The notes beneath the pieces are model-generated. The model was given only the letters and a program-made list of their open reading frames with translations, made no database searches and had not been told where the DNA came from. Position numbers and translations under genes: made by a program. From NCBI GenBank assembly GCA_034520565.1, contig JAXHNL010000002.1, forward strand, positions 160,001 to 224,000: 64,000 nucleotides of DNA, given 5' to 3'. Within the stretch, counting starts at the first letter, position 1. Each line of letters starts with the position of its first letter. This DNA comes from Halodesulfurarchaeum sp. Lineage in GTDB: Archaea > Halobacteriota > Halobacteria > Halobacteriales > Halobacteriaceae. This document shows, piece by piece, positions 17,953 through 43,045 of this stretch.

Positions 17953-19998
17953 ATGGCAACAACCAGTGGCGGCGAACTGGACCCGCAAAAGTCCATCTGC
18001 CCGTTCTGTGGGGTGGGCTGTGGACTCACGTACAACGAAGACAACGGCAAAGGCACGGGCTGGGAGGCATCGGTCAATACCCGGGGCGAACTCTGTCCCA
18101 AGGGCGCAGCGGGGTTCGAGATGCTCGACGCCGACGATCGGCTCACCCAGCCGATGGTCCGGGAGAACGGCCACCTCGTCACCGCCTCGTGGGACGAGGC
18201 CTTCGACCGGATCGCCGAGAACTTCTCCGAAATCGTCGAGGAACACGGGCCGGAGGCCCTGGGCTTCTATGCCTCGTCGAACTGCACGAACGAGGAGAAC
18301 TACCTCCTCCAGAAGATCGCCCGGAAGATCGGCTCGAACAACATCGACAACTGCGCGCGTCTCTGTCACGCCTCCACGGTGGCCGCGATGGCCGACCGTC
18401 TGGGCGTCGGCGCGATGACCAACACGACCGACGACCTCGGCGAGGCTGACGTGTACCTCGCCTGTGGGGCCAACCCCGCCGAACAGCACCCGGTCATCTT
18501 CAACTCGCATCTCGGCCCGGCCATCCGGGACGGGACCGACCTGATCCACGTCGATCCCCGCGAGAACCAGACGACTCGCCAGGCCAGTCAGCACGTCCCG
18601 GTCACGCCGGGCTACGACATCCCCGTGCTGAACGCGATGGCGAAGGTCATCCTCGATGAGGGGTTGTACGACGAGGAATTCGTCGAGGAGCGCACCGAGG
18701 GCTTCGAAGCCTTCGAGGCACATCTCGCCGACGTCGACGTGAGCGAGAACGCCGAACTGGCCGGCGTCGAGGAATCGACCATCCGGGAGGCCGCCCGAAC
18801 CTTCGCCGAGGCCGAGCGGGCCGCCGCATTCACCGGCATGGGCATGAGCCAGCACAAGTACGGGACGGACAACGTCCACGCGCTGATCAACCTCGTGTTA
18901 CTCACCGGGAACATCGGCAAGCCCGGAACTGGTGTGAATCCGCTCCGTGGCCAGAACAACGTCCAGGGAGCCGGTGACATCGGTGCGAGCCCGAGCTCGC
19001 TTCCGGGTTACCAGTCCGTCGAGGATCCCGAGGTTCGGGCCGACTTCGAGGACGCCTGGGGTTTCGAGCCGCCGGCCGAACCGGGACTCACTGAGGTCGA
19101 GATGAGTCACGCGGTGGGCGAGGACGTCTTCGGTCTCTACGTCTTCGCGGAGAACCCCGCGATCACCGAACCGCACTCCGGCCGGATCGAAGCGGAACTC
19201 GAGGAGGCCTTCCTCGTCGTCCAGGACCTCTTCATGACCGAGACCGCAGAATACGCGGACGTGATCCTCCCGGGTAGCGCCTGGGCGGAGAAAACCGGGA
19301 CGGTGACGAACACCGACCGCCGGGTTCAGATGATGCGCCAGATGCGTGACCCGCCGGGAGACGCGAAGACCGATCTGGAAATCATCCAGGAGTTCGGGCG
19401 GCGGATGACCGACCTCGACGTCGAGTACGACGACGCCGAGGCCGTCTTCGAGGAACTCACCGACGTCAGTCCGATCTACGCGGGCATGTCCTATGACGGC
19501 ATCGGGGAGAGCTACCAGCGCTGGCCCTTCTACGAGGGTGCGGAAGCGGGTGTGGACGTCCTCCACGAGGACACGTTCTACAGCGGCTCGAAAACCGCCG
19601 AATTCGCCGCCGTGGGCCACATCCCGCCGGGCGACGAGGTCGAGGAAGGCGAGCTCGTCCTCACGACCGGGCGTGTGCTCCAGCACTTCAACAGCGGGGC
19701 CATGTCCCGCCGGACCGAGACGCTCATGCGCATGCGCGGGGAGGACACCCTCGAGATGCACCCGACCGACGCCGAGGAGCGGGGCATCGAGGACGGCGAC
19801 TGGGTCGTCGTCGAGAACGAGCGTGGCGAGGTCGAAGTCGAGGTCGCCGTGACCCCGGCGATCACCGAGGGAACAGTCTTCATGACGTTCCACTACGCCG
19901 ACCCGCTCGTGAACACGCTCACCGGCGATTACCTCGACCCGGTGGCGAAGATCCCCGAGTTCAAGCACAGCGCTGTCTCAGTCTCGTCCGCCGAGTAG
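17953..19998 (+). CDS. fdhF: Formate dehydrogenase alpha subunit (FdhF type, Cys ligand), copy 1
   Basis: CPFCGVGC...LCPKG, NCARLCHAST, PLRGQNNVQG and DPVAKIPEFK. No Tat signal. Confidence 0.9.
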   Translation: MATTSGGELDPQKSICPFCGVGCGLTYNEDNGKGTGWEASVNTRGELCPKGAAGFEMLDADDRLTQPMVRENGHLVTASWDEAFDRIAENFSEIVEEHGPEALGFYASSNCTNEENYLLQKIARKIGSNNIDNCARLCHASTVAAMADRLGVGAMTNTTDDLGEADVYLACGANPAEQHPVIFNSHLGPAIRDGTDLIHVDPRENQTTRQASQHVPVTPGYDIPVLNAMAKVILDEGLYDEEFVEERTEGFEAFEAHLADVDVSENAELAGVEESTIREAARTFAEAERAAAFTGMGMSQHKYGTDNVHALINLVLLTGNIGKPGTGVNPLRGQNNVQGAGDIGASPSSLPGYQSVEDPEVRADFEDAWGFEPPAEPGLTEVEMSHAVGEDVFGLYVFAENPAITEPHSGRIEAELEEAFLVVQDLFMTETAEYADVILPGSAWAEKTGTVTNTDRRVQMMRQMRDPPGDAKTDLEIIQEFGRRMTDLDVEYDDAEAVFEELTDVSPIYAGMSYDGIGESYQRWPFYEGAEAGVDVLHEDTFYSGSKTAEFAAVGHIPPGDEVEEGELVLTTGRVLQHFNSGAMSRRTETLMRMRGEDTLEMHPTDAEERGIEDGDWVVVENERGEVEVEVAVTPAITEGTVFMTFHYADPLVNTLTGDYLDPVAKIPEFKHSAVSVSSAE

Positions 19999-20045
19999 GC
20001 AAGTAATACGCGCCTTTTTGTCACCCGCGGCAGAACCGGGTTTCG

Positions 20046-20450
20046 ATGGCGAAGGACTACCAGATACTCGAGCCCGATTCGATTCCGGAGACGCCGTTTC
20101 CCGAATCCGGAGTGACCCATCGCAAACTCACTGGCGAACTGCGTGCCCAGGAGATGCGGGTCAACCAGGTCACCGTCGACCCGGGCGAGGTCGTCGGCTA
20201 TCACAGCCACAAGCGACAGGAGGAGATCTACGTCTGTCACAAGGGGCCCGGAGAGGTGTACGTCGACGGCGAGCACCTCGAGGTTCCCGAGGGAGGGATC
20301 GTACGGATCGGCGTTGATGTTCCACGACAGGTGCTGAACACCGGCGATTTCCCCACCGTGTGGATCATGTTCGGAGCCCCGCCGATCGGAACCCGCGAGG
20401 ACTACGGCGAATACGAGGTAAGCGATGGGGGTTACGGCGAGGAACCGTAA
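20046..20450 (+). CDS. Cupin-domain protein
   Basis: HSHKRQEEIYV cupin metal motif and PRQVLN. Confidence 0.8.
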   Translation: MAKDYQILEPDSIPETPFPESGVTHRKLTGELRAQEMRVNQVTVDPGEVVGYHSHKRQEEIYVCHKGPGEVYVDGEHLEVPEGGIVRIGVDVPRQVLNTGDFPTVWIMFGAPPIGTREDYGEYEVSDGGYGEEP

Positions 20451-20553: not shown

Positions 20554-22017
20554 ATGAGTCTCGAATTCGATCTCGAAACACAGCAGACGCCGTATATCGA
20601 CCGCCTCGACGAGGAGGCGCGTGACGCCATCCACGAGGCCTCGATGTACATCATCGAAGAGCTGGGCATTCAGGTCAAACACGACGAAGCGGTCGAGTAC
20701 TTCGAGGAGGCCGGTGCGACAGTCGAAGACGAGTATCTCGTGAAGGCCGACCGCTCGTTGATCGAGGAGAACGTGGAGAAGGCCCCGGAGTCGTTTACCC
20801 TCCACGCCCGTAACCCCGAGAACAACCTCGAAATCGGCGGCGAGGACACCTTCCGCGCGCCGGGATACGGTGCCCCGAACATCCGGACCTTCGAGGACGG
20901 CCGGCGAAGCTCGACGGTCGCGGACTACGAGCTGTTCATGAAGCTGGCCCAGCAGGAAGACGTCATCAACTCGACCGGCTACAACGTGGCCGAGCCGACC
21001 GACGTCGACCAGGAGGTCAAACACCTCGAGATGGTCAAGCGGTCCCTCGAGTTCACCGACATGCCGGTCATGGTCTCGACCTACGGCCAGAACAGGACGG
21101 ATGCCAACCTCGAGATGGTGGGGATGGTCGTCGAGGATCCGGACCTCTCGAAGACGTATGCCGCCGGGTTGGTCAATACCGTCCCACCGCGGACCCTGGA
21201 CAGCGCGATGACCGGCGGGCTCGTCGGCCTCGCAAAGCAGGGCCAGGCGCCAGTCGTCTCCTCGTTCATCCAGGCCGGGGCATCCGGCCCGGGCACGATG
21301 GCCGGCGCGGTCGCGCTCGCGAACGCCGAAAACCTGATGGGTATCACTCTCGCACAGTTGATCAATCCCGGAAACCCCGTCGTCTACGGGGTGCCAGCCT
21401 CGAACCTCGACATGCGCTACGGTTCGCTCTCCATCGGCAGCGCCGAGTCCGCCCTCTTTGCGAACTTCGCCGGGACGATGGGTCGATACTACGGCGTCCC
21501 CGCGCGTGGCGGCGGCGGCCTGACCGACTCGAAGACGGTCGACTACCAGGCCGGGTTCGAGTCGATGCTGGTCAACATGGTCGCGGAGTTCTCCGGCGTC
21601 GACTTCATTCTGCACTCGGCCGGCATTATCGAATCCTACTCCACGATCTCTCCCGAGAAGTTCGTCCTCGACGCGGAAGCCATGCGCTTCCTCGACCGAT
21701 TCCAGGATGGCTACGTGATCAACGAGGAAATGCTCGCACTGGACATCGTCGAGAAGATCGACCCCGACGATCACTTCCTCGGCGAGTCCCACACCCTGAA
21801 GTTCGCTGGCAAGGACTTCCTCATCCCGGAACTCGTCGACAAGCGCTCCCACGGAGACTGGAAGGACGACGGCGAAAAGACCGCCTTCGAGATGGGCCAC
21901 GACAAGGTCCAGGAACACCTCGAGGCCTACAGCAAACCGGAACTCGACGAAGACATCCAGGCCGAACTCGACGCCTACGTCGAGGAGGAGGCCGCCCGAA
22001 TCATGGACGAGGCCTGA
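20554..22017 (+). CDS. MttB-superfamily methyltransferase without pyrrolysine (glycine betaine:corrinoid methyltransferase MtgB-like)
   Basis: IHEASMYIIEELGI, APESFTLHARNPE, PGTMAGAVALANAE, QLINPGNPVVYG, YYGVPARGGGGLTDSKTVDYQAGFES, HSAGIIES and HFLGESHT. No in-frame amber codon. Confidence 0.88.
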   Translation: MSLEFDLETQQTPYIDRLDEEARDAIHEASMYIIEELGIQVKHDEAVEYFEEAGATVEDEYLVKADRSLIEENVEKAPESFTLHARNPENNLEIGGEDTFRAPGYGAPNIRTFEDGRRSSTVADYELFMKLAQQEDVINSTGYNVAEPTDVDQEVKHLEMVKRSLEFTDMPVMVSTYGQNRTDANLEMVGMVVEDPDLSKTYAAGLVNTVPPRTLDSAMTGGLVGLAKQGQAPVVSSFIQAGASGPGTMAGAVALANAENLMGITLAQLINPGNPVVYGVPASNLDMRYGSLSIGSAESALFANFAGTMGRYYGVPARGGGGLTDSKTVDYQAGFESMLVNMVAEFSGVDFILHSAGIIESYSTISPEKFVLDAEAMRFLDRFQDGYVINEEMLALDIVEKIDPDDHFLGESHTLKFAGKDFLIPELVDKRSHGDWKDDGEKTAFEMGHDKVQEHLEAYSKPELDEDIQAELDAYVEEEAARIMDEA

Positions 22018-22411: not shown

Positions 22412-24115
22412 ATGTCCTCGGAACCAGAGACTGACTACGAGATCGCACAATCCGTAGACGAGAAACCGATTTGGGAGGTCACCGAACCCTTCGGGCTCGA
22501 CAAAGACGACCTCGAACTGTACGGTGACTACAAAGCCAAGATCAGCGAGGAGGCCATCGACGACCTCCTCGAGGGGGACAAGGAGGACGGTGACGTCATC
22601 CTCGTCACCGGCATGACGCCCACACCGATGGGCGAAGGGAAGACGGTGACCTCCGTCGGCCTGGGCCAGGCACTGAACCACATCGGCGAGGAGGCGATGA
22701 TCGCAATCCGCGAACCCTCGCTGGGCCCGGTCTTCGGAATCAAGGGCGGCGCGGCCGGCGGCGGCTGGTCGCAGGTCCTGCCAATGGAGGACATCAACCT
22801 CCACTTCACGGGCGACATTCACGCCCTGACGGCCGCTCACAACCTGATCTCGGCGATGCTCGACGCCCACATCTCGAAGGGCAACGAGCTCAACATCGAA
22901 ACGACGAGCGTCGCGTGGCCGCGCGCGGTCGACCACAACGACCGGGCCCTCCGCCAGACGATCGTCGGCGCCGGCGAATCCGCCGGTGTCACCCGGATGG
23001 ACGAGCACGTCCTCACCGCGGCCTCGGAACTGATGGCCATCCTCTGTCTCGCGGAGGACGTCGAGGACCTCAAAGAGCGCATCAGCCGCATCATCGTCGC
23101 CTACGACGAGGACGGCGACCCTGTCACGGCCGGGGACATCGAAGCCGCCGGCGCTTCGGCCATCCTGCTGCGGGACGCCCTCCGACCGAACGTCGTCCAG
23201 ACGATCGAGGGGACCCCCGCCCTGGTCCACGGCGGCCCGTTCGCGAACATCGCCCACGGAACGAACTCGCTGATCGCGGACTACGTCGGCAAGAAGATGG
23301 GCGATTACCTCGTCACCGAGGCCGGCTTCGGCTCCGCCCTCGGCGGGGAGAAGTTCCTCAACGTCGTGAGCCAGCTCGGCGACATCGAGCCAAGCACCAT
23401 CGTGCTGGTCGGCTCGGTCCGCGCCCTGAAGTACCACGGTCAGGACATGTGGCCCTTCGAGGGCCAGGAGGCCCTCCAGGAGGAGGACGTGGAAGCCGTC
23501 AAGGCCGGCTTCGAGAACCTCGACAAGCACGTCGAGAACCTCACGCAGTTCGGCCTGCCGGTCACCATCGCGATCAACCGCTTCCCCACGGACACGGACG
23601 CGGAGATCGACGCAGTTCGGGAGCACTACGAGGACGTGGACGACGTTCGCGTGGCCGAGTCCAACGTGTTCGGCGACGGTGGCGCGGGCGGCGTCGAACT
23701 GGCCGAGAAGGTCGTCGAGTCGATCGAGGAGTCCGAGGGCGAATTCCAGCCGCTCTACGACCTCGAGGACTCCCTGAAGGAGAAGATGGAGGCCGTTGCG
23801 ACCAAGATCTACGGTGCTGACGGCGTCAACTACGTCGGGAGCGCCGAGGAGGACATCGCCCAGCTCGAGGAGATGGGCCTGGATAACGTTCCGGTCGTCA
23901 TGTCCAAGACCTTCCACTCGCTCAGCGACGACCCGTCAAAGAAGGGCGCCCCCGAGGGCTGGACCCTCGACGTCCGCGAACTCTACCCCTCTGCAGGTGC
24001 CGGATTCGTCGTCGCACTCACCGGTGACGTCATGACCATGCCCGGCCTGCCTGCCCGGCCGGCCGCCGCCGACATGGACATCGAGCCCGACGGCACCATC
24101 TCCGGCCTGTTCTAG
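22412..24115 (+). CDS. fhs: Formate--tetrahydrofolate ligase
   Basis: TPTPMGEGKT, GIKGGAAGGGWSQV, INLHFTGD, HGGPFANIAHG and VMTMPGLP. Confidence 0.97.
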   Translation: MSSEPETDYEIAQSVDEKPIWEVTEPFGLDKDDLELYGDYKAKISEEAIDDLLEGDKEDGDVILVTGMTPTPMGEGKTVTSVGLGQALNHIGEEAMIAIREPSLGPVFGIKGGAAGGGWSQVLPMEDINLHFTGDIHALTAAHNLISAMLDAHISKGNELNIETTSVAWPRAVDHNDRALRQTIVGAGESAGVTRMDEHVLTAASELMAILCLAEDVEDLKERISRIIVAYDEDGDPVTAGDIEAAGASAILLRDALRPNVVQTIEGTPALVHGGPFANIAHGTNSLIADYVGKKMGDYLVTEAGFGSALGGEKFLNVVSQLGDIEPSTIVLVGSVRALKYHGQDMWPFEGQEALQEEDVEAVKAGFENLDKHVENLTQFGLPVTIAINRFPTDTDAEIDAVREHYEDVDDVRVAESNVFGDGGAGGVELAEKVVESIEESEGEFQPLYDLEDSLKEKMEAVATKIYGADGVNYVGSAEEDIAQLEEMGLDNVPVVMSKTFHSLSDDPSKKGAPEGWTLDVRELYPSAGAGFVVALTGDVMTMPGLPARPAAADMDIEPDGTISGLF

Positions 24116-26405: not shown

Positions 26406-26747
26406 ATGAGTGAGGTTCCGGACGCCATCGACAACGTCGACAACCGGTTTTTCAAACGGGGGATGGTGGTGGCCATCCTGTACGCGATCGTCGACGTCCT
26501 CATCCTGACCGTCGGTGGCCCGTTCGTGTTTTTCCGCCTGATCGGCGTGGTCGCCGCGTACTATGCGACTCGCGACATCATCGTGCTCAGGGAAGCCGGA
26601 CTGGAGTGGGGAAAGACGCGGTATGCGATCCTCGTGTTCGTGGGCATCGGGGGCTTTCTCGGCTATTTCTACTACGCATGGCGGCGAACGGTCCACCTCA
26701 GGGGAATCGAAATCGAGCCCGAAGCGGAATCGACCGAGGAGAAATAA
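26406..26747 (+). CDS. Hypothetical membrane protein
   Basis: Three hydrophobic segments, acidic tail and host-like codon usage. Confidence 0.7.
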   Translation: MSEVPDAIDNVDNRFFKRGMVVAILYAIVDVLILTVGGPFVFFRLIGVVAAYYATRDIIVLREAGLEWGKTRYAILVFVGIGGFLGYFYYAWRRTVHLRGIEIEPEAESTEEK

Positions 26748-26748
26748 C

Positions 26749-34664: not shown

Positions 34665-34665
34665 C

Positions 34666-35415
34666 TTAGAGCACCTCCAGTTCCTCGAGGACTTCGACGG
34701 CACGATCCACCGCCTCGGGGCCTTCGCCGAGGACTTCTGCCTCCTCGTCCTCCGACTCGGGCGTCTCGAGTTCCTGCATCTGCAGGCGGTCCGCGGTCTC
34801 GACCGGCTCGATGACTTCCAGTTCCGTCTTCTTGGCCTGCATCCGGCTCCGCATCGACGGGTAGCGCGGCGTGTTCAGGCCCTCCTTGACGGTGATAACT
34901 GCGGGCGTTTCGACTTCGAAGACTTCCGAGCCGCCGGGGACGTCGCGCTTGGCGATGGCCGTGTCCCCGTCGACTTCGAAGTCCTTGATGCCGGTGACGA
35001 CCGGGAGATCGAGCAGGTGGGCAACGCGAATGCCGACCTGATAGTTCGCGTTGTCTCCGGACTCGTTGCCGAAGAAGAGGAGATCGAAGTCCCGGTCCTC
35101 GACGGCGTCGGCGATGGCGGTGGCCGTCGACTCCGGCCCCCACTCTTCGCCGTCGGTTTCGAGGAGCATCCCCTCGTCGGCACCGCGGCCGATTCCTTCG
35201 TAAATCTGGTCCTCTATGTCCTCGGGGCCGAGACTCAGCACGGTCGACGTGCCGCCCTCCTCCTCGACTGTCTGGACGGCCTCCTCGATCGCACATTCCT
35301 CGTGTGGGCCCATCGTATACCCCACGGCGGAGGCGTCGACCGACTGTTTGTCGTCGGTCAGGACGATCTCTGCCCCGGTATCCGCGACGCGCTTGATACA
35401 GGCTAATGTTTCCAT
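34666..35415 (-). CDS. etfB: Electron transfer flavoprotein beta subunit
   Basis: CIKRVAD, ECAIEEAVQ, GNESGD..YQVG and NTPRYPS. Confidence 0.93.
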   Translation of the reverse strand: METLACIKRVADTGAEIVLTDDKQSVDASAVGYTMGPHEECAIEEAVQTVEEEGGTSTVLSLGPEDIEDQIYEGIGRGADEGMLLETDGEEWGPESTATAIADAVEDRDFDLLFFGNESGDNANYQVGIRVAHLLDLPVVTGIKDFEVDGDTAIAKRDVPGGSEVFEVETPAVITVKEGLNTPRYPSMRSRMQAKKTELEVIEPVETADRLQMQELETPESEDEEAEVLGEGPEAVDRAVEVLEELEVL

Positions 35416-35500: not shown

Positions 35501-38035
35501 TTAGCTCAGGATCCGCTCGTTGCTCGGGTCGAACAGCGGGCGGCCGCCGACGACTTCGATCGTGACCGGATAGTCCTTCCCGAAGTACTCGACTTGCAGC
35601 TGCTTGCCCTCCTCGGCGACGTCCATCGGAATGTACGCCATCAGGATGTGCTTGCCGACGGAGGGGCCCGTCGCGGCGCTCGTGACGTAGGACCGGCGGC
35701 CCTCGTCGTCCATGAGCACCTCGCCGTCCATGTCTTTGACCGGCTCGCCACCGAGCGGGTAGCGTTCCTCGCCACCGTTCGGGGCGTGGTCGTCGACGGT
35801 CAGCATGCAGAGCTTGGCTGCGGGCTCTCCTTCGACCGCTTCCACGTAGGCGTCCTTGCCGATGAAGTCGGCGTCCTTGACGCCGTGGAAGTCGAGACCG
35901 GCCTCGACCGGGTTGTAATCGGTCTCAAGTTCGGCACCGAGCAGGCGGTAGCCCTTCTCCATGCGGCCGGTGGCACCGTAGACACCGGTCCCGACCGGAC
36001 GGAGATCGTACTCCTGACCGGCCTCGTAGATGGTGTCCCACAGACGACCGGTCTGCTCCATCGGCGCGTAGATCTCCCAGCCGAGTTCGCCGACGTAGGA
36101 GATACGCATCGCGAAGGCCTCGACGTCACCGATGTGGACCTGCTGTCCGGTGTAGGCCGGGAAGGCCTCGTCGGACATGTCCTCCTCGGTGATCTCCTGC
36201 ATGACCTTCCGGGCGTTCGGCCCCCAGACGCCCATCGTGCCCAGCGCGGAGCTCTTGGAGACGAGCTCGACTTGCATGTCGTCTTCCATGTGCTGGCGGA
36301 TCCACTGCTTGTCGTGGCCGGCGTCCCCGCCGCCGGTGATGAACCGGAAGCGGTCCTCGGCCAGTCGCACGACAGTCAGGTCAGCACGGAAGCCCGCTCC
36401 CTGGTCGAGAACCGGCGTGTAGACCAGTTTGCCAATGTCGACGTCCATCCGGCCGACGGTGAGCTTCTCGGCCATCTCGAGGGCGTCAGGGCCCTGGAGT
36501 TCGTAGATCCCGAAGCCCATGTCGCCGATCAGGCCGACGTTGTCCCGCATGTGCAGGTGCTCGGCCAGGATGATCGGTGACCACCAGCGGCGGTCCCATT
36601 CGTTCGGTCGGGAGAACTCGCTGATCGTCTCCTGGTACTTCTGGATCAGGTCCGCGTTGTCGCGGAACCAACGGGGTCGCTCCCAGCCGGCGGCCTCGAA
36701 GAACATCGGATCGAACTCCTCGAGGCGGTCGTGGAAGCCGGTCTGGCGGAGCGGCCGACCGGACATCCACTGCTCGGATGGGTGAATCGTACCGTAAATC
36801 TTGCGGAACCCTTCCTTCGAGCGCTCCTCGATGTAGCTCTTCGAGCGGCCGTATTCCTCGTAGCGGGCGATGTTCTCGCCCTCGAGGTCCACGTCGATTG
36901 CGCCGTAGCCTTGGGTCATCCACTTGGCCACTTCCTCGGCCAGCGCGGGTGCCTCCTTGATCCAGATGGCAGCGACCGACCACAGGTTGTCGAGTTCTTC
37001 GACCGGACCGATGACCGGCCCACCGTCGGCGGTCAGGGAGAGCAGGCCGTCGATCGAGTGCCGGATCCCCGCGTCGGGGTCGTCGAGGATCTCGGGCATG
37101 AGCTCGAGCGCGTGCTCCATGGACTCCTCGAAGGCGTCCTCGGTGAGCGGTGGCTGGGTCGGCGAGAGCGGCGCCTCGTCGATGGACGGAATGTCCTCGA
37201 CGTCCCACAGGATCGGGCGGTGGGAGTAGGAGCCGACCTCGATCTCGCTGCCGTGCTGGCGCTCGTACATCCGGTGGTCCATGTCCCGGACGATCGGGTA
37301 CTCGATGCCCTCGATGCCCTCGAACTGCTCGATCGGGCCCACGCTGATCATCTGGTGGACGGCCGGCGTGAGCGGGATGCGCGTGCCAGCCATCTCGGCC
37401 AGTTCGGGACTCCAGATCCCGGCGGCGATGACCAGGGTATCATCGACCTCGACGTTCCCGCGGTCGGTCTCGATGGCCGTGACTTCCTCGCCCTCGGTGA
37501 GAATGTCCGTCACTTCCGTGTTCGGGGAGACCGTCAGCGCGCCCATGTCCTTGGCGCGCTGGCGGCAGATCTCACCCCACTGAAGTGAGTCACACACACC
37601 GGCGTCGTCGAAGTAAACGGCGCCTTCGATGATGTCCTCGTTGATGTAGGGCACCATCTCTTTGACTTCGTCGGCGTCCAGCATTTCGGCGTGGCCACCG
37701 AAGGACTTCGACGACTGGACTCGCCGCCTGTTCTCCTCCATCTGCTCTTTCGTTCGAGCGACTTCCAGGCCACCGGACTCGGTGTAGACGCCGGCTTCCT
37801 TGTACTGCTCGATGGACTTGTATCCGAGCTCGGTGATCGCCTTGCCATGTGTCACCGGCATCAGGAAGTTCGACGCGTGGCCGGTCGATCCGCCGGGGTC
37901 CGGGAGGGGACCCTTGTCGACGAGAAGGATGTCTTCGACTCCCTGATCGGCGAGATGATATGCGAGACTGTTCCCCACGATACCGGCGCCGATAATTACT
38001 GTACCGGCGCTGTCGGGTAGTGTGTTTGAACTCAT
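35501..38035 (-). CDS. GcvT-family flavoprotein, dimethylglycine/sarcosine dehydrogenase-like
   Basis: IIGAGIVG, GSTGHAS (the His corresponds to the covalent FAD site), GWERP, RISYVGELGWEIY and RMEKGYR. 844 aa with FAD and folate-binding domains. Confidence 0.9.
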   Translation of the reverse strand: MSSNTLPDSAGTVIIGAGIVGNSLAYHLADQGVEDILLVDKGPLPDPGGSTGHASNFLMPVTHGKAITELGYKSIEQYKEAGVYTESGGLEVARTKEQMEENRRRVQSSKSFGGHAEMLDADEVKEMVPYINEDIIEGAVYFDDAGVCDSLQWGEICRQRAKDMGALTVSPNTEVTDILTEGEEVTAIETDRGNVEVDDTLVIAAGIWSPELAEMAGTRIPLTPAVHQMISVGPIEQFEGIEGIEYPIVRDMDHRMYERQHGSEIEVGSYSHRPILWDVEDIPSIDEAPLSPTQPPLTEDAFEESMEHALELMPEILDDPDAGIRHSIDGLLSLTADGGPVIGPVEELDNLWSVAAIWIKEAPALAEEVAKWMTQGYGAIDVDLEGENIARYEEYGRSKSYIEERSKEGFRKIYGTIHPSEQWMSGRPLRQTGFHDRLEEFDPMFFEAAGWERPRWFRDNADLIQKYQETISEFSRPNEWDRRWWSPIILAEHLHMRDNVGLIGDMGFGIYELQGPDALEMAEKLTVGRMDVDIGKLVYTPVLDQGAGFRADLTVVRLAEDRFRFITGGGDAGHDKQWIRQHMEDDMQVELVSKSSALGTMGVWGPNARKVMQEITEEDMSDEAFPAYTGQQVHIGDVEAFAMRISYVGELGWEIYAPMEQTGRLWDTIYEAGQEYDLRPVGTGVYGATGRMEKGYRLLGAELETDYNPVEAGLDFHGVKDADFIGKDAYVEAVEGEPAAKLCMLTVDDHAPNGGEERYPLGGEPVKDMDGEVLMDDEGRRSYVTSAATGPSVGKHILMAYIPMDVAEEGKQLQVEYFGKDYPVTIEVVGGRPLFDPSNERILS

Positions 38036-38580: not shown

Positions 38581-40314
38581 ATGCTCGAAGTTGACCTCAC
38601 CGAGCGGACGGTCCGTCGCGAGGAGATTCCGGTGGCGTGGCGGCAGCAGTTCATCGGCGGGAAAGGACTCGGGGCCCGATACCTCTACGAGCGGACCGAA
38701 GCGGGGGTCGACCCGCTCGGTCCAGGAAACGCCCTCCTGTTCATGACCGGGCCGATCTCGGGAGTGATCCCTGGTGAACCCCGCTATGCGGCGATCACGA
38801 AGTCGCCACTCACCGGCACGTTTCTCGACTCCTACAGCGGCGGTGACTTTGCCGCCCACCTGGCGGGGAGCCTCGCCGACACAATGGGCATCATCGTCAC
38901 CGGGCAGGCGTCAGAACCGGTGGCGCTGGTCGTCTCGAACGGTGACGTGTCGATCGAGTCCGCGACCGAATGGGGCGAGGACGTCGAGACGGCCTGTGGG
39001 GCCTATCCGGACGCCAAAGTCGCGTGTACGGGCCCGGCCGGCGAAAACGAGGTGGTCTACGCCACGATCGCCTCGGACGGCGGCGACCATCACGCGGGTC
39101 GTGGGGGCGCGGGCGCGGTCATGGGTTCAAAGCGGCTCAAGGCCGTCGTCGCGAGAGACCCACCGCCAGAGGGACTGGAATCGCTCAGAGCCGAGTACGA
39201 GGAGCGGTACGGCGACGGGGCGACCGACGGCTGGCACCGGGCCAGTGAAACCGTCGAATCGGTCGACTTCGCTGACGAGGTCGGGGCCCTCTCGACACGC
39301 GGCTGGCAGGAGAGCACCTTCGAGGGCACCGACAGCATCGGAATCGAAGCCGTCGAGTCCGCAGCGGACGCGCGCGAACACGAGGACAGTCCCATCCCGG
39401 GCGGGTTCCAGGTCGAGGTCGGCGACGAGACGAGCACGCCCCGCGGCGGGACCCAGATGACCCTCGGTGCCGGGCTGGGAATCGACGACTTCGAGGACGT
39501 GGCGACCCTCGGGCTCACCTGCGATCGGCTGGGCGTGGACATCATCGGCGTGGGCAACGCGATCGCGTGGGCGATCAGAGCCGGCACGGAAGGCGTGATC
39601 GACTTCGAGGGAGAGTTCGGCGACCTCGCAGCCGCCGTTTCACTCGCCGAGGACATCGCAAACCGGGACGGCGAACTCGGAGACGCGCTCGCGGACGGGA
39701 TCGACAACGCGGCCGCCCGTTTCGGGGGCGAAGACCTGATCCCGACCGTCAAGGGCATGGAACTGCCCTCGTATGACCCGCGCCGGGCACCGAGCATGGC
39801 GCTCGCGTACGCGACGAGTGACCGGGGCGCCTGCCACCGACGGGCGCGACCGATCGAGACGGCCGTCTTCGAGCCGGACACGGACGAGCCCGTGCGTCGC
39901 GCCCGCGAGGTCATCGCCGAACAGGACTTCCGGTCGTTGCTCTGGAGTCTCATCGCCGACGACTTCACGGAGACCCTCTTCGCGGGCGATTTCGGCTCGG
40001 AGTGGCTCGGGGCGGTCGGCATCGATCTCTCGCCGGCGGAGCTCAGGCGGGCCGGCACCCGTATCTGGACGATGACCCGACTGTACAACGTCCGCGAGGG
40101 GTTCGACCGAGCGGACGACGAGTTACCGCCGGTCCTCGAAGAACCCGTTTCCGACGGTCCGGGGGCGGGTGAGGCAGTCTCGATGGAGTCCTTCGAGGCG
40201 ATGCGCGAGGCCTATTACGCCGAACGCGGCTGGGACGAGCGGGGTGTCCCGACGGCCGATCTACTCGAGGGCCTCGGGCTCGACGGCATCGACGTGCCCG
40301 CCGAAATCGACTGA
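38581..40314 (+). CDS. Aldehyde:ferredoxin oxidoreductase-family protein (atypical)
   Basis: FIGGKGLG, KSPLTG, GPAGEN, GRGGAGAVMGSKRLKA, VKGMELPSYDPR, DRGACH and YYAERGWD. The start may be slightly further upstream. Confidence 0.85.
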   Translation: MLEVDLTERTVRREEIPVAWRQQFIGGKGLGARYLYERTEAGVDPLGPGNALLFMTGPISGVIPGEPRYAAITKSPLTGTFLDSYSGGDFAAHLAGSLADTMGIIVTGQASEPVALVVSNGDVSIESATEWGEDVETACGAYPDAKVACTGPAGENEVVYATIASDGGDHHAGRGGAGAVMGSKRLKAVVARDPPPEGLESLRAEYEERYGDGATDGWHRASETVESVDFADEVGALSTRGWQESTFEGTDSIGIEAVESAADAREHEDSPIPGGFQVEVGDETSTPRGGTQMTLGAGLGIDDFEDVATLGLTCDRLGVDIIGVGNAIAWAIRAGTEGVIDFEGEFGDLAAAVSLAEDIANRDGELGDALADGIDNAAARFGGEDLIPTVKGMELPSYDPRRAPSMALAYATSDRGACHRRARPIETAVFEPDTDEPVRRAREVIAEQDFRSLLWSLIADDFTETLFAGDFGSEWLGAVGIDLSPAELRRAGTRIWTMTRLYNVREGFDRADDELPPVLEEPVSDGPGAGEAVSMESFEAMREAYYAERGWDERGVPTADLLEGLGLDGIDVPAEID

Positions 40315-40557: not shown

Positions 40558-41232
40558 ATGACAGACGAGGACTCAGCCGACGACCTCGACCCCATCATCG
40601 AGGACATTCAACAGGCGATCATCGACCTCGAGGAGGACAAAACGGCCGAACTGACCCAGAAGGCCATCGACATGGACATCAGTCCACTGATCATCCTCCA
40701 GGAGGGGCTGACCAACGGGGTCAGGACGGTCGGCGACAAGTTCGGCAGGGGGGAAGTCTTCCTGCCCGAACTGGCCATGTCCGCTGACTGTATGCGAGCA
40801 GGGGTCGACCTCGTCGAACCATTGTTGGACGAAATGGATCTCGCCGACGAGGACACGGCCGGGAAGGTCATCCTCGGGACCGTCGACGAGGACATCCACA
40901 ACATCGGGAAGAACATTCTGCTCACGATGCTGAAGGCAAACGGCTTCGACGTCATCGACCTCGGCGTCGAGATCCCCAACGAGGACTTCGTCCAGGCCGT
41001 CAAGGACGAGGAGCCCGACATTCTGGGCATGTCCGCACTCATGACCATGACGATGGACCACCAGGAAGAGGTCATCGAACTCCTCGAGGAAGAAGGCATT
41101 CGCGATCAGGTCAAGGTCATGGTCGGTGGCGCACCGACCTCCGAAGAGTGGCGGGACGAAATCGGTGCGGACGGCTACGCTGACAACGCCGACGCGGCCG
41201 TGGAAAAGGCGATCGAGCTGCTCACCAAGTAG
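40558..41232 (+). CDS. Methyltransferase cognate corrinoid protein (MtgC/MttC-like)
   Basis: B12 cap VGDKFGRGEVFLPEL, base-off/His-on motif EDIHNIGKN, SALMT and VMVGGAP. Confidence 0.93.
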   Translation: MTDEDSADDLDPIIEDIQQAIIDLEEDKTAELTQKAIDMDISPLIILQEGLTNGVRTVGDKFGRGEVFLPELAMSADCMRAGVDLVEPLLDEMDLADEDTAGKVILGTVDEDIHNIGKNILLTMLKANGFDVIDLGVEIPNEDFVQAVKDEEPDILGMSALMTMTMDHQEEVIELLEEEGIRDQVKVMVGGAPTSEEWRDEIGADGYADNADAAVEKAIELLTK

Positions 41233-41417
41233 CGCAATTCTTGACAGCGTCGACAGTTTTATTATAACCTATCAGTTGCAAAACCGCCGGAATGCAGCCG
41301 CGTCCCGAACCGATCGTTCGATCATGACGAAAAAAGAATAAATAATTTCATAAACCCCGAGTCGCATCGTTAGTGCGTATCGGACCCACAACCAACGGTT
41401 GGGTGACGATAACACAC

Positions 41418-43045
41418 ATGAGTACAGGAAACAAAGGTGCAATCGGCACGTTTATCGACGAACTGGACTGGGTAACGTATGGTGTCGGCCTCGGGGTATC
41501 GATCCTCGCGATCCTCGCGCTGATCCTCTCCCCGGAGGCTGCAAGACAATTCATCAACAACGCCTTCACCTGGATGACACAGCAGCTCGGGTGGGCCTAC
41601 CTGCTCGTGGGCTTTTCACTCGTGCTTTTCGCGCTCTTCCTGGTGTTGGGCCCGTGGGCGACATTCGTATCGGGAAACCCGACGAGGAGCCGGAACATTC
41701 GTTCAAATCCTACTTCGCGATGCTCTACTCGGCTGGCATCGCGGCCGGGATCGTGTTCTGGGGTCCGGCTGAAGCGATTTCCCACTACGAACTCTACGTC
41801 CCACCGGTTAACAGCCCGCTGGGCGGGGCCGAGGGAGGAACCCCGGCAGCCGCAGTCGACGCGATCACGTACACGTTCTTCCACTGGGGGATTTCGGCGT
41901 GGTCGTTCTACGTGCTGCTCGCGCTGCCCATCGCCTTCTTCGCCTACCGCTATGGCGCACCGATGCGGATTTCGACGGTGCTCGCCCCGTTCCTCGGAAC
42001 GGACAACCTCGATGGCGCGCTCCCGAAGGTGATCGACATCCTCGGCGTGTTCGCGACCATCGGCGGGATCGCCACCTCGCTCGGATTCGTCGGAGGCCAG
42101 TTCCTGGCCGGGCTGAATTACATCTTCGGCATCCCGACCACTGACGTCCTCACCATCGTGATGATTACCGGCTTGACGGCCTTCTTCACCATCTCGGCCG
42201 CACTCGGCGTGGAGAAGGGGATCAAGCGGGTCTCGAACTTCAACATGATGGTGTTCTTCTTCCTGATGATCGTGGTATTCGTCTTCGGCCCCACCGCCTA
42301 CATCCTCGACATCGGGGTCGAATCCATCGGTGCATACCTCAACAACTTCATCCAGGTGAGCACGTTCACCAACTCCGCCGGCGTCGATCCGACCGGGTTC
42401 GTGCCCCTCTGGACCGTCTTCTACTGGGCCTGGTGGTTCGCGTGGGCCCCGTTCGTCGGCCTGTTCATCGCCCGCATTTCGAGGGGTCGAACGGTCCGAC
42501 AGATGGTCGGGACCGGCGTCATCGCCTCGACCGGCGTCACCATCCCGTGGTTCGCCGCCCTCGGTGGCTCCTCGATCTGGATGGAGATCAACGACGTCGC
42601 ACCGATCGTCGACACCTACAACAACATCGGGTACGACGGCCTCGGCTACCCGCTGTTCGAAGCACTGCTGCCGGGCGTGCTGGGCGTGTTCCTCATGCTC
42701 GCGTTCCTGGTGCTCGTGACGACGTTCTTCGTCACCTCTGCTGACTCCTCGACGCTCGCGCTGGGCATGCTCACGACGGGTGGCAAACGGAAACCCTCGA
42801 CGATCAACCGCACCATCTGGGGCGTCACGATGGGTGCCCTCGCGTCGCTGCTCCTCGTCTTCGGTGGGGCAAACGCGTTGCAGACCGCCTCCGTGTTGAC
42901 CGGTGGTCCATTCGCACTCGTCCTGATCCTCGCCGTCTGGGCGACGATCCGGACCTTCCGACAGGTCGAGCCCGTGTTCCTCACCGAGAAGGAACGCGAC
43001 GAAAGCGCAAGGGAGATCGACCCGAGCGGCGGTCTGGACGACTGA
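41418..43045 (+). CDS. BCCT-family (betaine/choline/carnitine) transporter, frameshift near 41656
   Basis: FFHWGISAW, the WTVFYWAWWFAWAPFVGLFIARISRGRT signature and FFVTSADS. The N-terminus is in ORF 41373..42032; one missing G in tgggcgac separates the two parts. Confidence 0.9.

What the first reader, a model, noticed from the sequence alone, without database searches (positions are those of the whole stretch)
17953..43045. Haloarchaeal corrinoid-dependent quaternary-amine (probably glycine betaine) demethylation cluster wired to a THF methyl branch and formate dehydrogenases
Seen: within 25 kb lie a BCCT transporter, a Pyl-free MttB-superfamily methyltransferase, a corrinoid protein, a RACo activator, an MtrH/MtgA-like enzyme, metF, folD, fhs, two fdhF genes, a DMG/sarcosine dehydrogenase-like gene and etfAB. 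Established: MtgB/MtgC/MtgA move a betaine methyl group to THF in anaerobic bacteria such as Desulfitobacterium, and MetF-FolD-Fhs-Fdh form the Wood-Ljungdahl methyl branch. Inference: betaine is imported and demethylated to dimethylglycine without O2. The methyl-THF is oxidised to formate, with ATP from Fhs run in reverse, and then to CO2. DMG is further demethylated to give methylene-THF and reduced ETF. This would be non-methanogenic anaerobic methylotrophy on a dominant brine osmolyte, in a class not usually credited with it. Novelty must be checked against work on anaerobic sulfur-respiring haloarchaea, where betaine use may already be reported.
Basis: partly seen in the sequence, partly recalled or inferred. 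Interest (0 to 1): 0.9.

Follow-up and report, generated by a model that had tools for sequence, protein, structure and literature searches.

The report
Haloarchaeal vitamin-B12 betaine-demethylation gene cluster
A salt-loving, sulfur-breathing archaeon carries a complete set of genes for stripping the methyl groups off glycine betaine without oxygen and burning them to CO2, a diet not yet credited to this group, although the same genes were already published, differently interpreted, for a sister species.

Summary
Four more lie there: an aldehyde:ferredoxin oxidoreductase, a cupin, YqeC and an AstE-like deacylase.

The window is from a Halodesulfurarchaeum-like metagenome genome. Its gene order matches HTSR_1736-1759 of H. 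formicicum (PMC5437934). That paper read the Fdh, THF, Etf and "GcvT" genes as formate and C1 metabolism and never mentions betaine or corrinoids.

- **MttB homologue:** closest to D. hafniense MtgB (390 bits), and it keeps that enzyme's four betaine-binding residues as Y/R/H/Y (PMC13080624).
- **MtrH-like protein:** closest to MtgA.
- **"GcvT":** a dimethylglycine oxidase/dehydrogenase homologue.
- **Conservation:** the same 14-gene set recurs in another order in a genome of another haloarchaeal family.
- **Rarity:** of 401 Halobacteria genomes, 12 have MttB, and 5 have MtrH and RACo.

Best reading (about 0.6): anaerobic betaine demethylation to THF, oxidation through formate to CO2, with electrons passing to sulfur respiration. 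No growth or enzyme data exist.

The BCCT gene is frameshifted in this assembly.

My searches found no paper linking MtgB to haloarchaea. Verdict: new member of a known kind. The scan had noted this same stretch once before (e1-6431517).

The parts
17953..19998 (+). FdhA1, cytoplasmic FdhF-type formate dehydrogenase catalytic subunit (Cys type)
   Evidence: Pfam Molybdop_Fe4S4, Molybdopterin and Molydop_binding. TIGR01591 scores 720 bits against a cut-off of 666. RLCH Cys-His motif at residue 136.
20046..20450 (+). Cupin-domain protein, role unknown; travels with the cluster
   Evidence: PF07883 at 44.5 bits. Found beside MttB in L005-L010. Found at 50% identity inside the G394 cluster.
20554..22017 (+). 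MtgB-like, pyrrolysine-free MttB-superfamily methyltransferase (quaternary amine:corrinoid; probably glycine betaine)
   Evidence: PF06253 at 466 bits. Best solved relative is D. hafniense MtgB (9yce/2qne), E 1.8e-115. Residues Y105, R318, H354 and Y362 correspond to MtgB Y97, R312, H348 and F356 (PMC13080624). The called protein is 487 aa.
22412..24115 (+). Fhs, formate-tetrahydrofolate ligase
   Evidence: PF01268 at 802 bits. NF010030 scores 797 bits against a cut-off of 652.
24294..26366 (+). FdhA2, second cytoplasmic FdhF-type formate dehydrogenase subunit (Cys type)
   Evidence: TIGR01591 at 774 bits. Best solved relative is the alpha subunit of an F420-dependent formate dehydrogenase at 656 bits; E. 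coli FdhH scores 493 bits. RLCH motif present.
26406..26747 (+). Small predicted membrane protein, unknown role
   Evidence: No Pfam or NCBIfam match. Conserved in L007-L010.
26749..27477 (-). YqeC-family protein (accessory protein for molybdenum-enzyme cofactors); probable start at 27477
   Evidence: PF19842 at 90 bits. TIGR03172 scores 149 bits against a cut-off of 73. Start read.
27534..28496 (-). AstE/AspA-like deacylase, role unknown
   Evidence: PF24827 at 93 bits. Conserved only in the Halodesulfurarchaeum-type loci.
28650..30602 (+). RACo-type ATP-dependent reductive activase of corrinoid proteins, with an N-terminal 2Fe-2S ferredoxin domain
   Evidence: Fer2, RACo_linker, Raco_middle and RACo_C_ter (305 bits). 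Four N-terminal cysteines.
30682..31590 (-). MtgA-like (MtrH-family) methyl-corrinoid:tetrahydrofolate methyltransferase
   Evidence: PF02007 at 239 bits. Best solved relative is the D. hafniense methylcorrinoid:THF methyltransferase 6sj8 at 216 bits over the full length.
31698..32534 (-). MetF, short non-canonical methylene-THF reductase
   Evidence: PF02219 at 51 bits. Best solved relative is 7xg9, a 288-aa MTHFR, E 3.2e-26.
32672..33562 (+). FolD, methylene-THF dehydrogenase/methenyl-THF cyclohydrolase
   Evidence: PF00763 and PF02882. NF010764 scores 515 bits against a cut-off of 477.
33696..34664 (-). EtfA, electron-transfer flavoprotein alpha subunit (probable start at 34664)
   Evidence: PF01012 and PF00766. 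Start read.
34666..35415 (-). EtfB, electron-transfer flavoprotein beta subunit
   Evidence: PF01012. Best solved relative is human ETF beta at 99 bits; bifurcating Etfs score 81-91 bits.
35501..38035 (-). Dimethylglycine (or sarcosine) dehydrogenase/oxidase homologue with a folate-binding GcvT-like half
   Evidence: DAO, FAO_M, GCV_T and GCV_T_C. Best solved relative is A. globiformis dimethylglycine oxidase 1pj5 at 442 bits over the full length; mammalian DMGDH scores 313-318 bits. It is the only such gene in the genome.
38581..40314 (+). Tungsten-type aldehyde:ferredoxin oxidoreductase (probable start at 38581)
   Evidence: AFOR_N and AFOR_C. Solved relatives: 9mqx at 293 bits, H. volcanii WOR83 at 249 bits, formaldehyde:Fd oxidoreductase 1b25 at 240 bits. 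Start read.
40558..41232 (+). MtgC-like corrinoid protein
   Evidence: B12-binding_2 and B12-binding. TIGR02370 scores 227 bits against a cut-off of 215. DxHxxG at residues 112-117.
41418..43045 (+). BCCT-family transporter, frameshifted in this assembly near 41650-41657
   Evidence: PF02028 at 478 bits. Best NCBIfam match is the glycine betaine uptake BCCT, 422 bits, below its cut-off of 650. Frameshift shown. Trp-box WTVFYWAWW at residue 343.
43120..46221 (-).
   Evidence: Mur_ligase_M, Mur_ligase_C and Pterin_bind. TIGR01499 and TIGR01496 score above their cut-offs. It lies beside MttB in 12 of 42 haloarchaeal loci.

Best explanation
The cluster encodes a complete route for using glycine betaine (GB) as a methyl and electron source without oxygen, in a strictly anaerobic, sulfur-respiring haloarchaeon of the genus Halodesulfurarchaeum or one very near it. 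The identity of the parts is shown by sequence. Every step of the route below, and its direction, is inferred.

1. GB enters through the BCCT carrier.
2. The MtgB-like enzyme moves one N-methyl group onto the Co(I) corrinoid protein and leaves dimethylglycine.
3. The MtgA-like enzyme passes the methyl group to tetrahydrofolate (THF).
4. RACo re-reduces any oxidised corrinoid, at the cost of ATP.
5. MetF, FolD and Fhs oxidise methyl-THF to formate. The Fhs step yields ATP.
6. The two cytoplasmic FdhA enzymes oxidise formate to CO2.
7. The flavin enzyme (DMG dehydrogenase-like) removes the remaining methyl groups from dimethylglycine, and perhaps from sarcosine. It delivers the carbon to THF as methylene-THF and the electrons to EtfAB.
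8. From EtfAB the electrons can reach menaquinone through the FixCX-like oxidoreductase encoded elsewhere in the genome, and from there the sulfur, thiosulfate or DMSO reductases.
9. The glycine cleavage system, also encoded elsewhere, would take the glycine.
For: **Parts.**
- The MttB homologue scores 390 bits against D. hafniense MtgB, 266 bits against the Sinorhizobium homologue 4yyc and 146 bits against pyrrolysine MttB.
- The four residues that bind GB in the solved MtgB structure and are needed for activity are Y97, R312, H348 and F356 (PMC13080624, abstract and passages). Here they are Y, R, H and Y. That paper reports F356Y as near wild type. It also reports that the aromatic pair is not conserved in the carnitine, proline betaine, butyrobetaine and choline enzymes.
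- The MtrH-like protein is closest to MtgA.
- The corrinoid protein has DxHxxG.
- RACo has all four of its domains.
- The flavoenzyme aligns over its full length with dimethylglycine oxidase.

**Linkage.**
- In G394, a genome of another family, 14 of these genes lie in a different order within about 22 kb.
- Fhs lies beside MttB in 29 of 42 haloarchaeal loci. FdhA (at least 60% identity) does so in 15, a DMGDH homologue (at least 55%) in 8 and BCCT in 12. Many of these loci are cut short by contig ends.
- None of 29 bacterial loci has Fhs, FdhA, EtfB, RACo, MtrH or BCCT nearby.
- Of 31 haloarchaeal MttB rows with Fhs in the locus, 30 have Tyr or Phe at position 97. Of 17 rows without Fhs, 7 do. 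I counted these by hand. Related genomes are not independent.

**Expression in the sister species.**
- All cluster proteins were detected in three proteomes (Table S11 of PMC5437934).
- MttB made up 0.45-0.93% of spectral counts and Fhs 0.58-1.46%.
- The 'GcvT' at the position of the flavoenzyme was the most abundant protein of all.

**Rest of the genome.** It holds a FixC/FixX-like pair with a second EtfAB and GcvP.
Against: - There are no growth, labelling or enzyme data for any haloarchaeon. The 2017 paper lists the donors tested on H. formicicum and betaine is not among them.
- That paper's proteomes came from formate-grown cells with 100 mg/l yeast extract. High expression is therefore equally compatible with its formate/C1 reading, or with constitutive expression.
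- I matched HTSR_1750 to the flavoenzyme by gene order and annotation only, not by sequence.
- NCBIfam's curated cut-offs for MtgA (249 against 550), MtgC (224 against 310) and the GB-type BCCT (422 against 650) are not reached.
- The BCCT gene is frameshifted in this assembly.
- The oxidation of methyl-THF by MetF is thermodynamically hard, and no electron acceptor is identified for it or for the FdhA enzymes.
- The authors of the MtgB study say the four-residue motif is probably a minimum requirement, not proof of specificity.
- No characterised MtgB, MtcB, MtpB, MtyB or MthB sequence could be put in my tree.
Confidence: 0.6

Rival explanations
1. The published reading. The cluster is mainly a formate and C1 hub. 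The cytoplasmic FdhA enzymes, with EtfAB as an electron-bifurcating interface, oxidise imported formate. The THF enzymes provide C1 units for purines, thymidylate, methionine, serine and glycine. The corrinoid methyltransferases only top up methyl groups for biosynthesis.
For: This is how PMC5437934 interprets HTSR_1736-1750 (passages). The organism grows on formate, and cytoplasmic FdhA abundance rose with thiosulfate. The proteins are abundant in formate-grown cells. Fhs is common in Halobacteria regardless of MttB: 156 of 401 genomes have it.
Against: - It leaves unexplained why a full MtgB/MtgC/MtgA/RACo set, a BCCT carrier and a dimethylglycine dehydrogenase homologue travel with Fhs and FdhA in two families.
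- It leaves unexplained why the flavoenzyme is the most abundant protein.
- MttB-Fhs-FdhA-DMGDH modules also occur in genera such as Halopenitus, Halobaculum and Halobacterium.
- EtfB is slightly closer to human non-bifurcating ETF, the natural partner of DMGDH, than to bifurcating Etfs: 99 against 81-91 bits. This is weak evidence.
Confidence: 0.17
2. The same machinery serves another methyl donor. This could be a different quaternary amine (choline, proline betaine, carnitine, butyrobetaine) or several donors. The flavoenzyme would then act on another N-methyl amino acid.
For: - MttB-superfamily members with 30-50% identity have different substrates (PMC13080624; PMC12478193 discussion).
- The genome has two further MttB paralogues (47% and 30% identity), four corrinoid proteins and a second RACo.
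- NCBIfam's GB-specific cut-offs are not reached.
- MtgB itself does not use proline betaine, although the motif would allow it.
Against: All four GB-contact residues are kept in this copy, including the aromatic pair that the other characterised enzymes lack. The paralogues differ at these positions: GRHY and RRNF. The neighbouring flavoenzyme is the one that takes the product of GB demethylation. The closest solved relative is MtgB.
Confidence: 0.15
3. The system runs towards methylation. Methyl-THF made from formate would be passed through MtgA and the corrinoid protein to an acceptor, for example sulfide, giving methanethiol, or dimethylglycine, giving betaine.
For: Traces of methanethiol are reported for H. 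formicicum cultures (species description). MtgD-type enzymes are described as bidirectional in Ruegeria.
Against: A salt-in haloarchaeon has no evident need to make betaine. The DMG dehydrogenase, ETF and BCCT importer fit breakdown, not synthesis. No MttB-family enzyme is known to me to run in reverse physiologically (recalled).
Confidence: 0.03

Closest known systems
MtgB/MtgC/MtgA (+ RamA-type activase) glycine betaine:THF methyltransferase system of Desulfitobacterium hafniense (PDB 2qne, 9yce, 6sj8; PMC13080624, PMC7154762)
   Same: Same three-component logic plus an activase. MtgB and MtgA are the best solved relatives of the two methyltransferases here. The GB-binding residues are kept. 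THF is the methyl acceptor. The host is an anaerobic respirer, not a methanogen.
   Different: The host is archaeal and extremely halophilic. The genes are scattered over several transcription units. They are joined to a dimethylglycine dehydrogenase/ETF pair, Fhs, FolD, MetF and two FdhA, so all N-methyl groups could be oxidised rather than one. NCBIfam equivalog cut-offs for MtgA and MtgC are not reached.
HTSR_1736-1759 / HSR6_1804-1824 of Halodesulfurarchaeum formicicum (PMC5437934)
   Same: By the annotated names, the gene order is identical from FdhA to CbiB. This is the same cluster in a sister species. Its proteins were detected by proteomics.
   Different: The published interpretation is formate oxidation with Etf-based bifurcation plus biosynthetic C1 metabolism. 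MttB, MtrH, the 'ferredoxin' (RACo) and the corrinoid protein appear only in supplementary tables. The words betaine and corrinoid are absent from the main text. The window's MttB is at most 96% identical to any fetched relative.
MtgBCD with MetF2 and THF-linked C1 oxidation in aerobic Ruegeria pomeroyi (PMC12478193)
   Same: A B12-dependent first demethylation of GB. A dedicated MetF paralogue oxidises methyl-THF. THF-linked oxidation follows. Further demethylation of dimethylglycine and an OpuD/BCCT carrier are part of the scheme (passages).
   Different: In Ruegeria the methyl-corrinoid:THF enzyme is a pterin-binding (PF00809) MtgD shared with methionine synthesis. Here it is an MtrH-type MtgA with a RACo activase. 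The host here is an anaerobe. The Rhodobacterales MttB homologues are only 31-37% identical.
MtgB/MtgC with a CoM methyltransferase in the methanogen Methanolobus vulcani (PMC6855144; listing and abstract start only)
   Same: An archaeal, corrinoid-dependent GB demethylation.
   Different: There the methyl group goes to coenzyme M and methane. Here it goes to THF and CO2, and no methanogenesis is involved.
Dimethylglycine oxidase of Arthrobacter globiformis and mammalian DMGDH with ETF (PDB 1pj5, 5l46, 1efv)
   Same: The same four-domain flavin plus folate architecture, with full-length alignment. An ETF is encoded next to it, as for the mitochondrial enzyme.
   Different: Whether it uses ETF or O2, and dimethylglycine or sarcosine, is not known. 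The host is a strict anaerobe, so a dehydrogenase is assumed.

Membership tests
MtgB (glycine betaine:corrinoid methyltransferase, non-Pyl MttB superfamily) | MttB-superfamily TIM-barrel domain (PF06253) over the full length | tested here: met
   466 bits, profile positions 25-496 of 500
MtgB (glycine betaine:corrinoid methyltransferase, non-Pyl MttB superfamily) | No in-frame UAG (pyrrolysine) codon | tested here: met
   The frame 20425-22017 has no stop codon
MtgB (glycine betaine:corrinoid methyltransferase, non-Pyl MttB superfamily) | GB-contact residues Y97, R312, H348 and F356 of the D. hafniense enzyme | tested here: met
   Y105, R318, H354 and Y362. F356Y is near wild type in PMC13080624
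MtgB (glycine betaine:corrinoid methyltransferase, non-Pyl MttB superfamily) | GB-dependent methylation of cob(I)alamin or MtgC | not testable with these tools
   Needs an enzyme assay
MttB proper (trimethylamine methyltransferase) | NCBIfam equivalog TIGR02369 above its cut-off, with pyrrolysine | tested here: not met
   305 bits against a cut-off of 525; no UAG
MtgC-type corrinoid protein | Cap domain plus Rossmann B12 domain with DxHxxG | tested here: met
   PF02607 and PF02310. TIGR02370 scores 227 against a cut-off of 215. DIHNIG at residue 112. The motif itself is recalled.
MtgC-type corrinoid protein | NCBIfam GB-specific MtgC models above their cut-offs | tested here: not met
   NF047995 scores 224 against 310; NF047996 scores 198 against 370
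MtgA (methyl-corrinoid:THF methyltransferase, MtrH family) | MtrH fold; closest relative is the characterised MtgA | tested here: met
   PF02007 at 239 bits. 6sj8 at 216 bits, residues 2-301. Methanogen MtrH 9qtp scores 153 bits
MtgA (methyl-corrinoid:THF methyltransferase, MtrH family) | NCBIfam equivalog NF047990 above its cut-off | tested here: not met
   249 bits against a cut-off of 550
RACo/RamA reductive activases of corrinoid enzymes | N-terminal Fe-S domain, linker, middle domain and ASKHA ATPase domain | tested here: met
   Fer2 at 52 bits, RACo_linker at 55, Raco_middle at 177 and RACo_C_ter at 305. The AcsV and RamA NCBIfam cut-offs are not reached: 455 against 800 and 102 against 500
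Dimethylglycine dehydrogenase/oxidase | DAO, FAO_M, GCV_T and GCV_T_C architecture with full-length likeness to a characterised enzyme | tested here: met
   1pj5 at 442 bits, residues 12-842
Dimethylglycine dehydrogenase/oxidase | Substrate (dimethylglycine or sarcosine) and acceptor (ETF or O2) | not testable with these tools
   Only one such gene in the genome
FdhF-type formate dehydrogenase | TIGR01591 above its cut-off; Cys or Sec followed by His at the active site | tested here: met
   720 and 774 bits against a cut-off of 666. RLCH in both. It aligns to RLxH of 9t1s
Wood-Ljungdahl pathway | Carbonyl branch (CO dehydrogenase/acetyl-CoA synthase) | tested here: not met
   No PF03598 (CdhC) match in G000, while the controls rang in two methanogens. 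Caveat: the genome is 80.7% complete
BCCT betaine carrier | Intact 12-helix carrier with the Trp box | tested here: inconclusive
   PF02028 at 478 bits and WTVFYWAWW present. However, the first two helices are in another frame. No read contig spans the site

The most novel reading that the evidence does not exclude
Halodesulfurarchaeum and a few other haloarchaea are non-methanogenic archaeal methylotrophs. At salt saturation they would oxidise all the methyl groups of glycine betaine to CO2 by sulfur, thiosulfate or DMSO respiration. A B12 step (MtgBCA with RACo) would be coupled to a flavin step (DMG dehydrogenase/ETF), with ATP gained at Fhs. The same THF hub would also be fed by two further MttB paralogues and by an O-demethylase-like island just upstream. 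The most abundant protein in the published H. formicicum proteomes would then be a betaine-pathway enzyme, not a glycine-cleavage protein.
Probability: 0.4. Interest if true: 0.75.

Novelty: new member of a known kind. Interest (0 to 1): 0.6.

Why it matters
Glycine betaine is a main organic osmolyte released in brines. From recall, its known anaerobic fates at high salt are fermentation to trimethylamine and methanogenesis.

If sulfur-respiring haloarchaea oxidise it completely, three things follow.
- A new sink for betaine, and a new link between the carbon and sulfur cycles, exists at salt saturation.
- The known diet of a genus described as growing only on formate or H2 widens.
- A published proteome has to be re-read.

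The claim is directly testable because H. formicicum strains are in culture collections.

The comparative data raise a second question. Several other haloarchaea keep an MttB-Fhs-DMGDH module but have no recognisable corrinoid protein, MtrH or RACo.

Tried and rejected
- **Expression in public runs.** No RNA holder is listed for window:20401-30400. The stretch is held at 0.94 of its words by one DNA run labelled salt pan metagenome. This says nothing on expression.
- **Checking the BCCT frameshift against reads.** The contigs of runs X1 and X2 stop at 41626-41629 and resume at 41656, so none spans the site. One low-depth X2 contig lacks a letter at 41886. This conflicts with the uninterrupted protein alignment and may be an error. 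The question remains open.
- **Tree.** The careful tree did not finish in 300 s, so I used the quick IQ-TREE result. It had 54 of 78 rows. I left out 21 bacterial rows and 3 duplicate rows from the window's own genome. No characterised MtgB, MtcB, MtpB, MtyB or MthB sequence was available as a stored protein, so the tree carries no functional labels.
- **Ticak et al. 2014.** Not held under its DOI.
- **Glycine/betaine reductase (PF07355).** No match, but the control genomes were silent too, so the result is uninformative.
- **The strain names 'H-GB1-1', 'H-GB11' and 'H-GB2-1'.** These are NCBI taxa that carry close MttB homologues. No paper in the library names them. That 'GB' stands for glycine betaine is my guess.
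- **A structure or complex prediction.** Not run.
- **Papers checked and found irrelevant.** PMC11237645, PMC9765009 and PMC12650772.
- **Supplements I could not see.** Supplementary file x1 (.doc) of PMC5437934 cannot be read here and may bear on how the authors treated these genes.

Full report
**What is there**

The window has 54-69% G+C and many spurious long frames. I picked genes by third-position G+C and acidic composition, then tested them against Pfam and NCBIfam.

Between 17953 and 43045 lie, in order:
- FdhA1
- a cupin
- a pyrrolysine-free MttB-family methyltransferase
- Fhs
- FdhA2
- a small membrane protein
- YqeC (minus strand)
- an AstE/AspA-like deacylase (minus)
- a RACo-type corrinoid activase
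- an MtrH-family methyltransferase (minus)
- a short MetF (minus)
- FolD
- EtfA, EtfB and an 844-aa DAO + GcvT flavoenzyme (all minus)
- an aldehyde:ferredoxin oxidoreductase
- a corrinoid protein
- a BCCT carrier

A FolC-FolP fusion, a MoCF-biosynthesis (CinA-like) gene and cobalamin uptake and salvage genes follow.

The 967-aa frame at 27699 is a spurious extension, and the activase starts at 28650. Probable true starts of MttB, AOR, EtfA and YqeC are 20554, 38581, 34664 and 27477.

**Whose DNA it is, and what is already in print**

The window is positions 160001-224000 of contig C2 of a 1.86-Mb, two-contig genome rated 80.7% complete. A public run labelled salt pan metagenome holds 94% of its sampled words.

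The nearest named relatives of its MttB protein are Halodesulfurarchaeum genomes assembled from metagenomes, at 85-96% identity.

The supplementary proteome table of Sorokin et al. 2017 (PMC5437934) lists HTSR_1736 to HTSR_1759 of H. formicicum in exactly the window's order:
- formate dehydrogenase alpha
- hypothetical protein
- trimethylamine:corrinoid methyltransferase
- formate-THF ligase
- formate dehydrogenase alpha
- hypothetical protein
- 'anaerobic dehydrogenase'
- succinylglutamate desuccinylase
- 'ferredoxin'
- MtrH
- MTHFR
- FolD
- EtfA and EtfB
- 'glycine cleavage system protein T'
- AOR
- 'corrinoid methyltransferase'
- BCCT
- dihydropteroate synthase
- CinA
- two hypothetical proteins
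- cobalamin-binding protein
- CbiB

I read passages of the main text and searched two supplementary files.
- The paper treats the two FdhA, Fhs, MTHFR, FolD, EtfAB and 'GcvT' as formate oxidation with Etf-based bifurcation plus biosynthetic C1 metabolism.
- The words betaine and corrinoid do not occur in the main text.
- MttB appears only in supplementary tables.
- All cluster proteins were detected in cells grown on formate with S0, thiosulfate or DMSO.
- 'GcvT' HTSR_1750 was the most abundant protein of all, at 0.86, 1.81 and 2.47% of spectral counts.
- Betaine is not in the list of electron donors tested. Yeast extract at 100 mg/l was required.

**Identity of the key enzymes**

MttB homologue:
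- It scores 390 bits against D. hafniense MtgB (9yce/2qne), 266 bits against the Sinorhizobium homologue 4yyc and 146 bits against pyrrolysine MttB.
- Picking et al. 2026 (PMC13080624; abstract and passages read) showed by mutagenesis and a betaine-bound structure that Y97, F356, R312 and H348 hold glycine betaine. They found F356Y to be near wild type. They also found that the aromatic pair is not conserved in the carnitine, proline betaine, butyrobetaine and choline enzymes.
- I mapped these residues through the printed alignment, where the 9yce chain numbering is offset by 2. The window's protein has Y105, R318, H354 and Y362.
- The two other MttB paralogues of this genome have GRHY and RRNF at these positions.

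Other components:
- The MtrH-like protein is closest to the solved methylcorrinoid:THF methyltransferase MtgA (216 bits over the full length). It scores 153-205 bits against the two solved chains deposited as MtrH.
- The corrinoid protein has both B12 domains and DxHxxG.
- The flavoenzyme aligns end to end with Arthrobacter dimethylglycine oxidase (442 bits) and with mammalian DMGDH (313-318 bits). It is therefore not a plain GcvT.
- Both FdhA pass the NCBIfam Fdh-alpha cut-off and have Cys-His at the active site.
- MetF resembles a 288-aa solved MTHFR, 7xg9. From recall, that entry is a mycobacterial flavin-independent type.
- NCBIfam's narrow cut-offs for MtgA, MtgC and the betaine-type BCCT are not reached. 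I therefore call these proteins '-like'.

**Is the grouping meaningful?**

I surveyed the same 401 Halobacteria genomes with four Pfam families.
- MttB: 12 genomes, 11 above the cut-off.
- MtrH: 5 genomes.
- RACo: the same 5 genomes.
- Fhs: 156 genomes.

The five genomes with the whole B12 set are the window's genome, its three congeners and G394, a genome of another family.

In G394 the genes lie within about 22 kb in this order: EtfA, EtfB, DMGDH, cupin, RACo, DUF1638, MetF, MtrH, FdhA, Fhs, MttB, FolD, corrinoid protein, BCCT. This is the same set in a different order.

A scan of one genome per species returned 42 haloarchaeal and 29 bacterial loci. Many haloarchaeal loci are cut short by contig ends. 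Among the 42 haloarchaeal loci:
- Fhs is beside MttB in 29
- FdhA (at least 60% identity) in 15
- FolC-FolP in 12
- BCCT in 12
- a DMGDH homologue (at least 55%) in 8
- EtfB in 7
- RACo in 7
- MtrH in 5

None of the 29 bacterial loci has Fhs, FdhA, EtfB, RACo, MtrH or BCCT nearby.

Named hosts of the reduced module include Halocatena marina, two Halopenitus species, Halobacterium bonnevillei, Halobacterium yunchengense and Halobaculum gomorrense.

In a quick tree, all Fhs-linked MttB proteins fall in one clade of 36 rows (SH-aLRT 98). Paralogues with Gly or Ala at position 97, including the window genome's second copy, form a separate group.

Of 31 Fhs-linked rows, 30 have Tyr or Phe at position 97. 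Of 17 unlinked rows, 7 do (hand count). Related genomes are not independent, so I give no statistics.

**How it most likely works**

Shown by sequence:
- a complete MtgB/MtgC/MtgA/RACo-type set
- a THF route between methyl-THF and formate
- two cytoplasmic formate dehydrogenases
- a dimethylglycine dehydrogenase homologue with its own ETF

Inferred:
1. Betaine is imported.
2. One methyl group goes through the corrinoid protein to THF.
3. The other methyl groups are removed by the flavoenzyme, with their carbon delivered to THF and their electrons to ETF.
4. THF-bound C1 units are oxidised through FolD and Fhs (ATP) to formate, and by FdhA to CO2.
5. ETF is re-oxidised by the FixC/FixX-like pair found at C2:741027-742660, next to a second EtfAB.
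6. Glycine goes to the glycine cleavage system (GcvP).

No acetyl-CoA synthase subunit was found. The methyl branch would therefore run oxidatively rather than as part of acetogenesis.

Speculative roles:
- The AOR might remove formaldehyde or supply reduced ferredoxin for RACo.
- The cupin is conserved in both complete clusters but has no assigned role.

Unsolved: the electron acceptors of MetF and FdhA.

**Weak points**

- Nothing has been measured in any haloarchaeon.
- The 2017 proteomes cannot separate this reading from the formate reading.
- I equated HTSR_1750 with the flavoenzyme by position and annotation only.
- The four-residue motif is a minimum requirement, according to its authors.
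- The BCCT gene is broken in this assembly. Its first two helices, from ATG 41418, are in another frame. The shift lies in a run of G near 41650-41657, and no read contig spans the site.
- A two-contig genome with only 80.7% completeness, together with a second frame break in MttB paralogue 2, suggests indel errors in the assembly. This is not proven.

**Novelty**

B12-dependent betaine demethylation to THF is established in anaerobic bacteria, in a methanogen (with CoM as acceptor) and, since 2025, in aerobic marine bacteria. In the marine bacteria, a MetF paralogue and THF-linked oxidation are part of the scheme (PMC12478193, passages).

For haloarchaea, my literature searches found the following.
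- A 2011 note that dimethylglycine-oxidase-like genes sit next to BCCT genes in four aerobic species (PMC3102087).
- The 2017 paper discussed above.
- 'haloarchaea' + 'MttB' + 'glycine betaine' gave two unrelated papers.
- 'MtgB' + 'haloarchae' gave one unrelated paper.
- 'Halodesulfurarchaeum' + 'betaine' gave three unrelated papers.
- 'Halanaeroarchaeum' + 'methyltransferase' + 'corrinoid' gave none.

Subscription journals are not covered by these searches. NCBI holds three unpublished-looking haloarchaeal isolates named H-GB1-1, H-GB11 and H-GB2-1 that carry close homologues. Someone may already be working on this.

I rate the finding a new member of a known kind, with a concrete re-interpretation of published data, and give it an interest of 0.6.

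Noticed in passing
G000:C2:147572-161286 (runs into window 108-1286), plus window 1302-3078: A second corrinoid methyltransferase island lies directly upstream. It holds a second RACo (51% identical), four URO-D-family methyltransferases, two corrinoid proteins, a pterin-binding MeTr-like methyltransferase (PF00809) and two MFS transporters, followed by DUF1638 and an IclR regulator. It looks like an O-demethylase (MtvABC or MtoABCD-like) system that could feed the same THF branch.
   Followed up: partly
G000:C2:32408-43388 and C2:127647-129101: There are two more MttB paralogues. One is 47% identical, has GRHY at the betaine-contact positions, and sits in a 54%-GC stretch with an OpuAC-type binding protein, a URO-D methyltransferase and a corrinoid protein. 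Its C-terminus is in another frame. The other is 30% identical, has RRNF at those positions, and sits beside VWA and AAA (CbbQ-like) genes.
   Followed up: partly
G022, G071, G073, G326, G376; loci L018, L024, L025, L028, L044, L045: Several other haloarchaea keep an MttB-Fhs-(FdhA)-DMGDH-EtfAB-FolCP-BCCT module. In them, MtrH and RACo were not found. The window's corrinoid protein gave only weak B12-domain matches at 24-30% identity. The MeTr-like protein gave none. What carries the methyl group there is unexplained.
   Followed up: partly
window 41418-41700: The BCCT gene is split between two frames at a run of G near 41650-41657. Together with the 80.7% completeness of a two-contig genome, this hints at indel errors in the assembly.
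   Followed up: partly
window 46426-51750: Cobalamin uptake and salvage genes follow the cluster: a BtuF-like binding protein, CbiB, a MobA-like nucleotidyl transferase and a class I/II aminotransferase. They fit the B12 demand of the methyltransferases.
   Followed up: no
window 6184-10605: A GlpC-like Fe-S/CCG protein and a GlpA-like FAD dehydrogenase with a BFD domain lie here. They probably encode an anaerobic glycerol-3-phosphate dehydrogenase.
   Followed up: no
L012, L016, L081 and window 1302-2162: DUF1638 lies next to RACo in three other haloarchaeal loci. In G394 it lies inside the cluster. It may be an accessory of corrinoid methyltransferase systems.
   Followed up: no
PMC5437934, species description: Traces of methanethiol are reported in H. 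formicicum cultures. Methyl-corrinoid chemistry with sulfide could be a source. This is my speculation.
   Followed up: no
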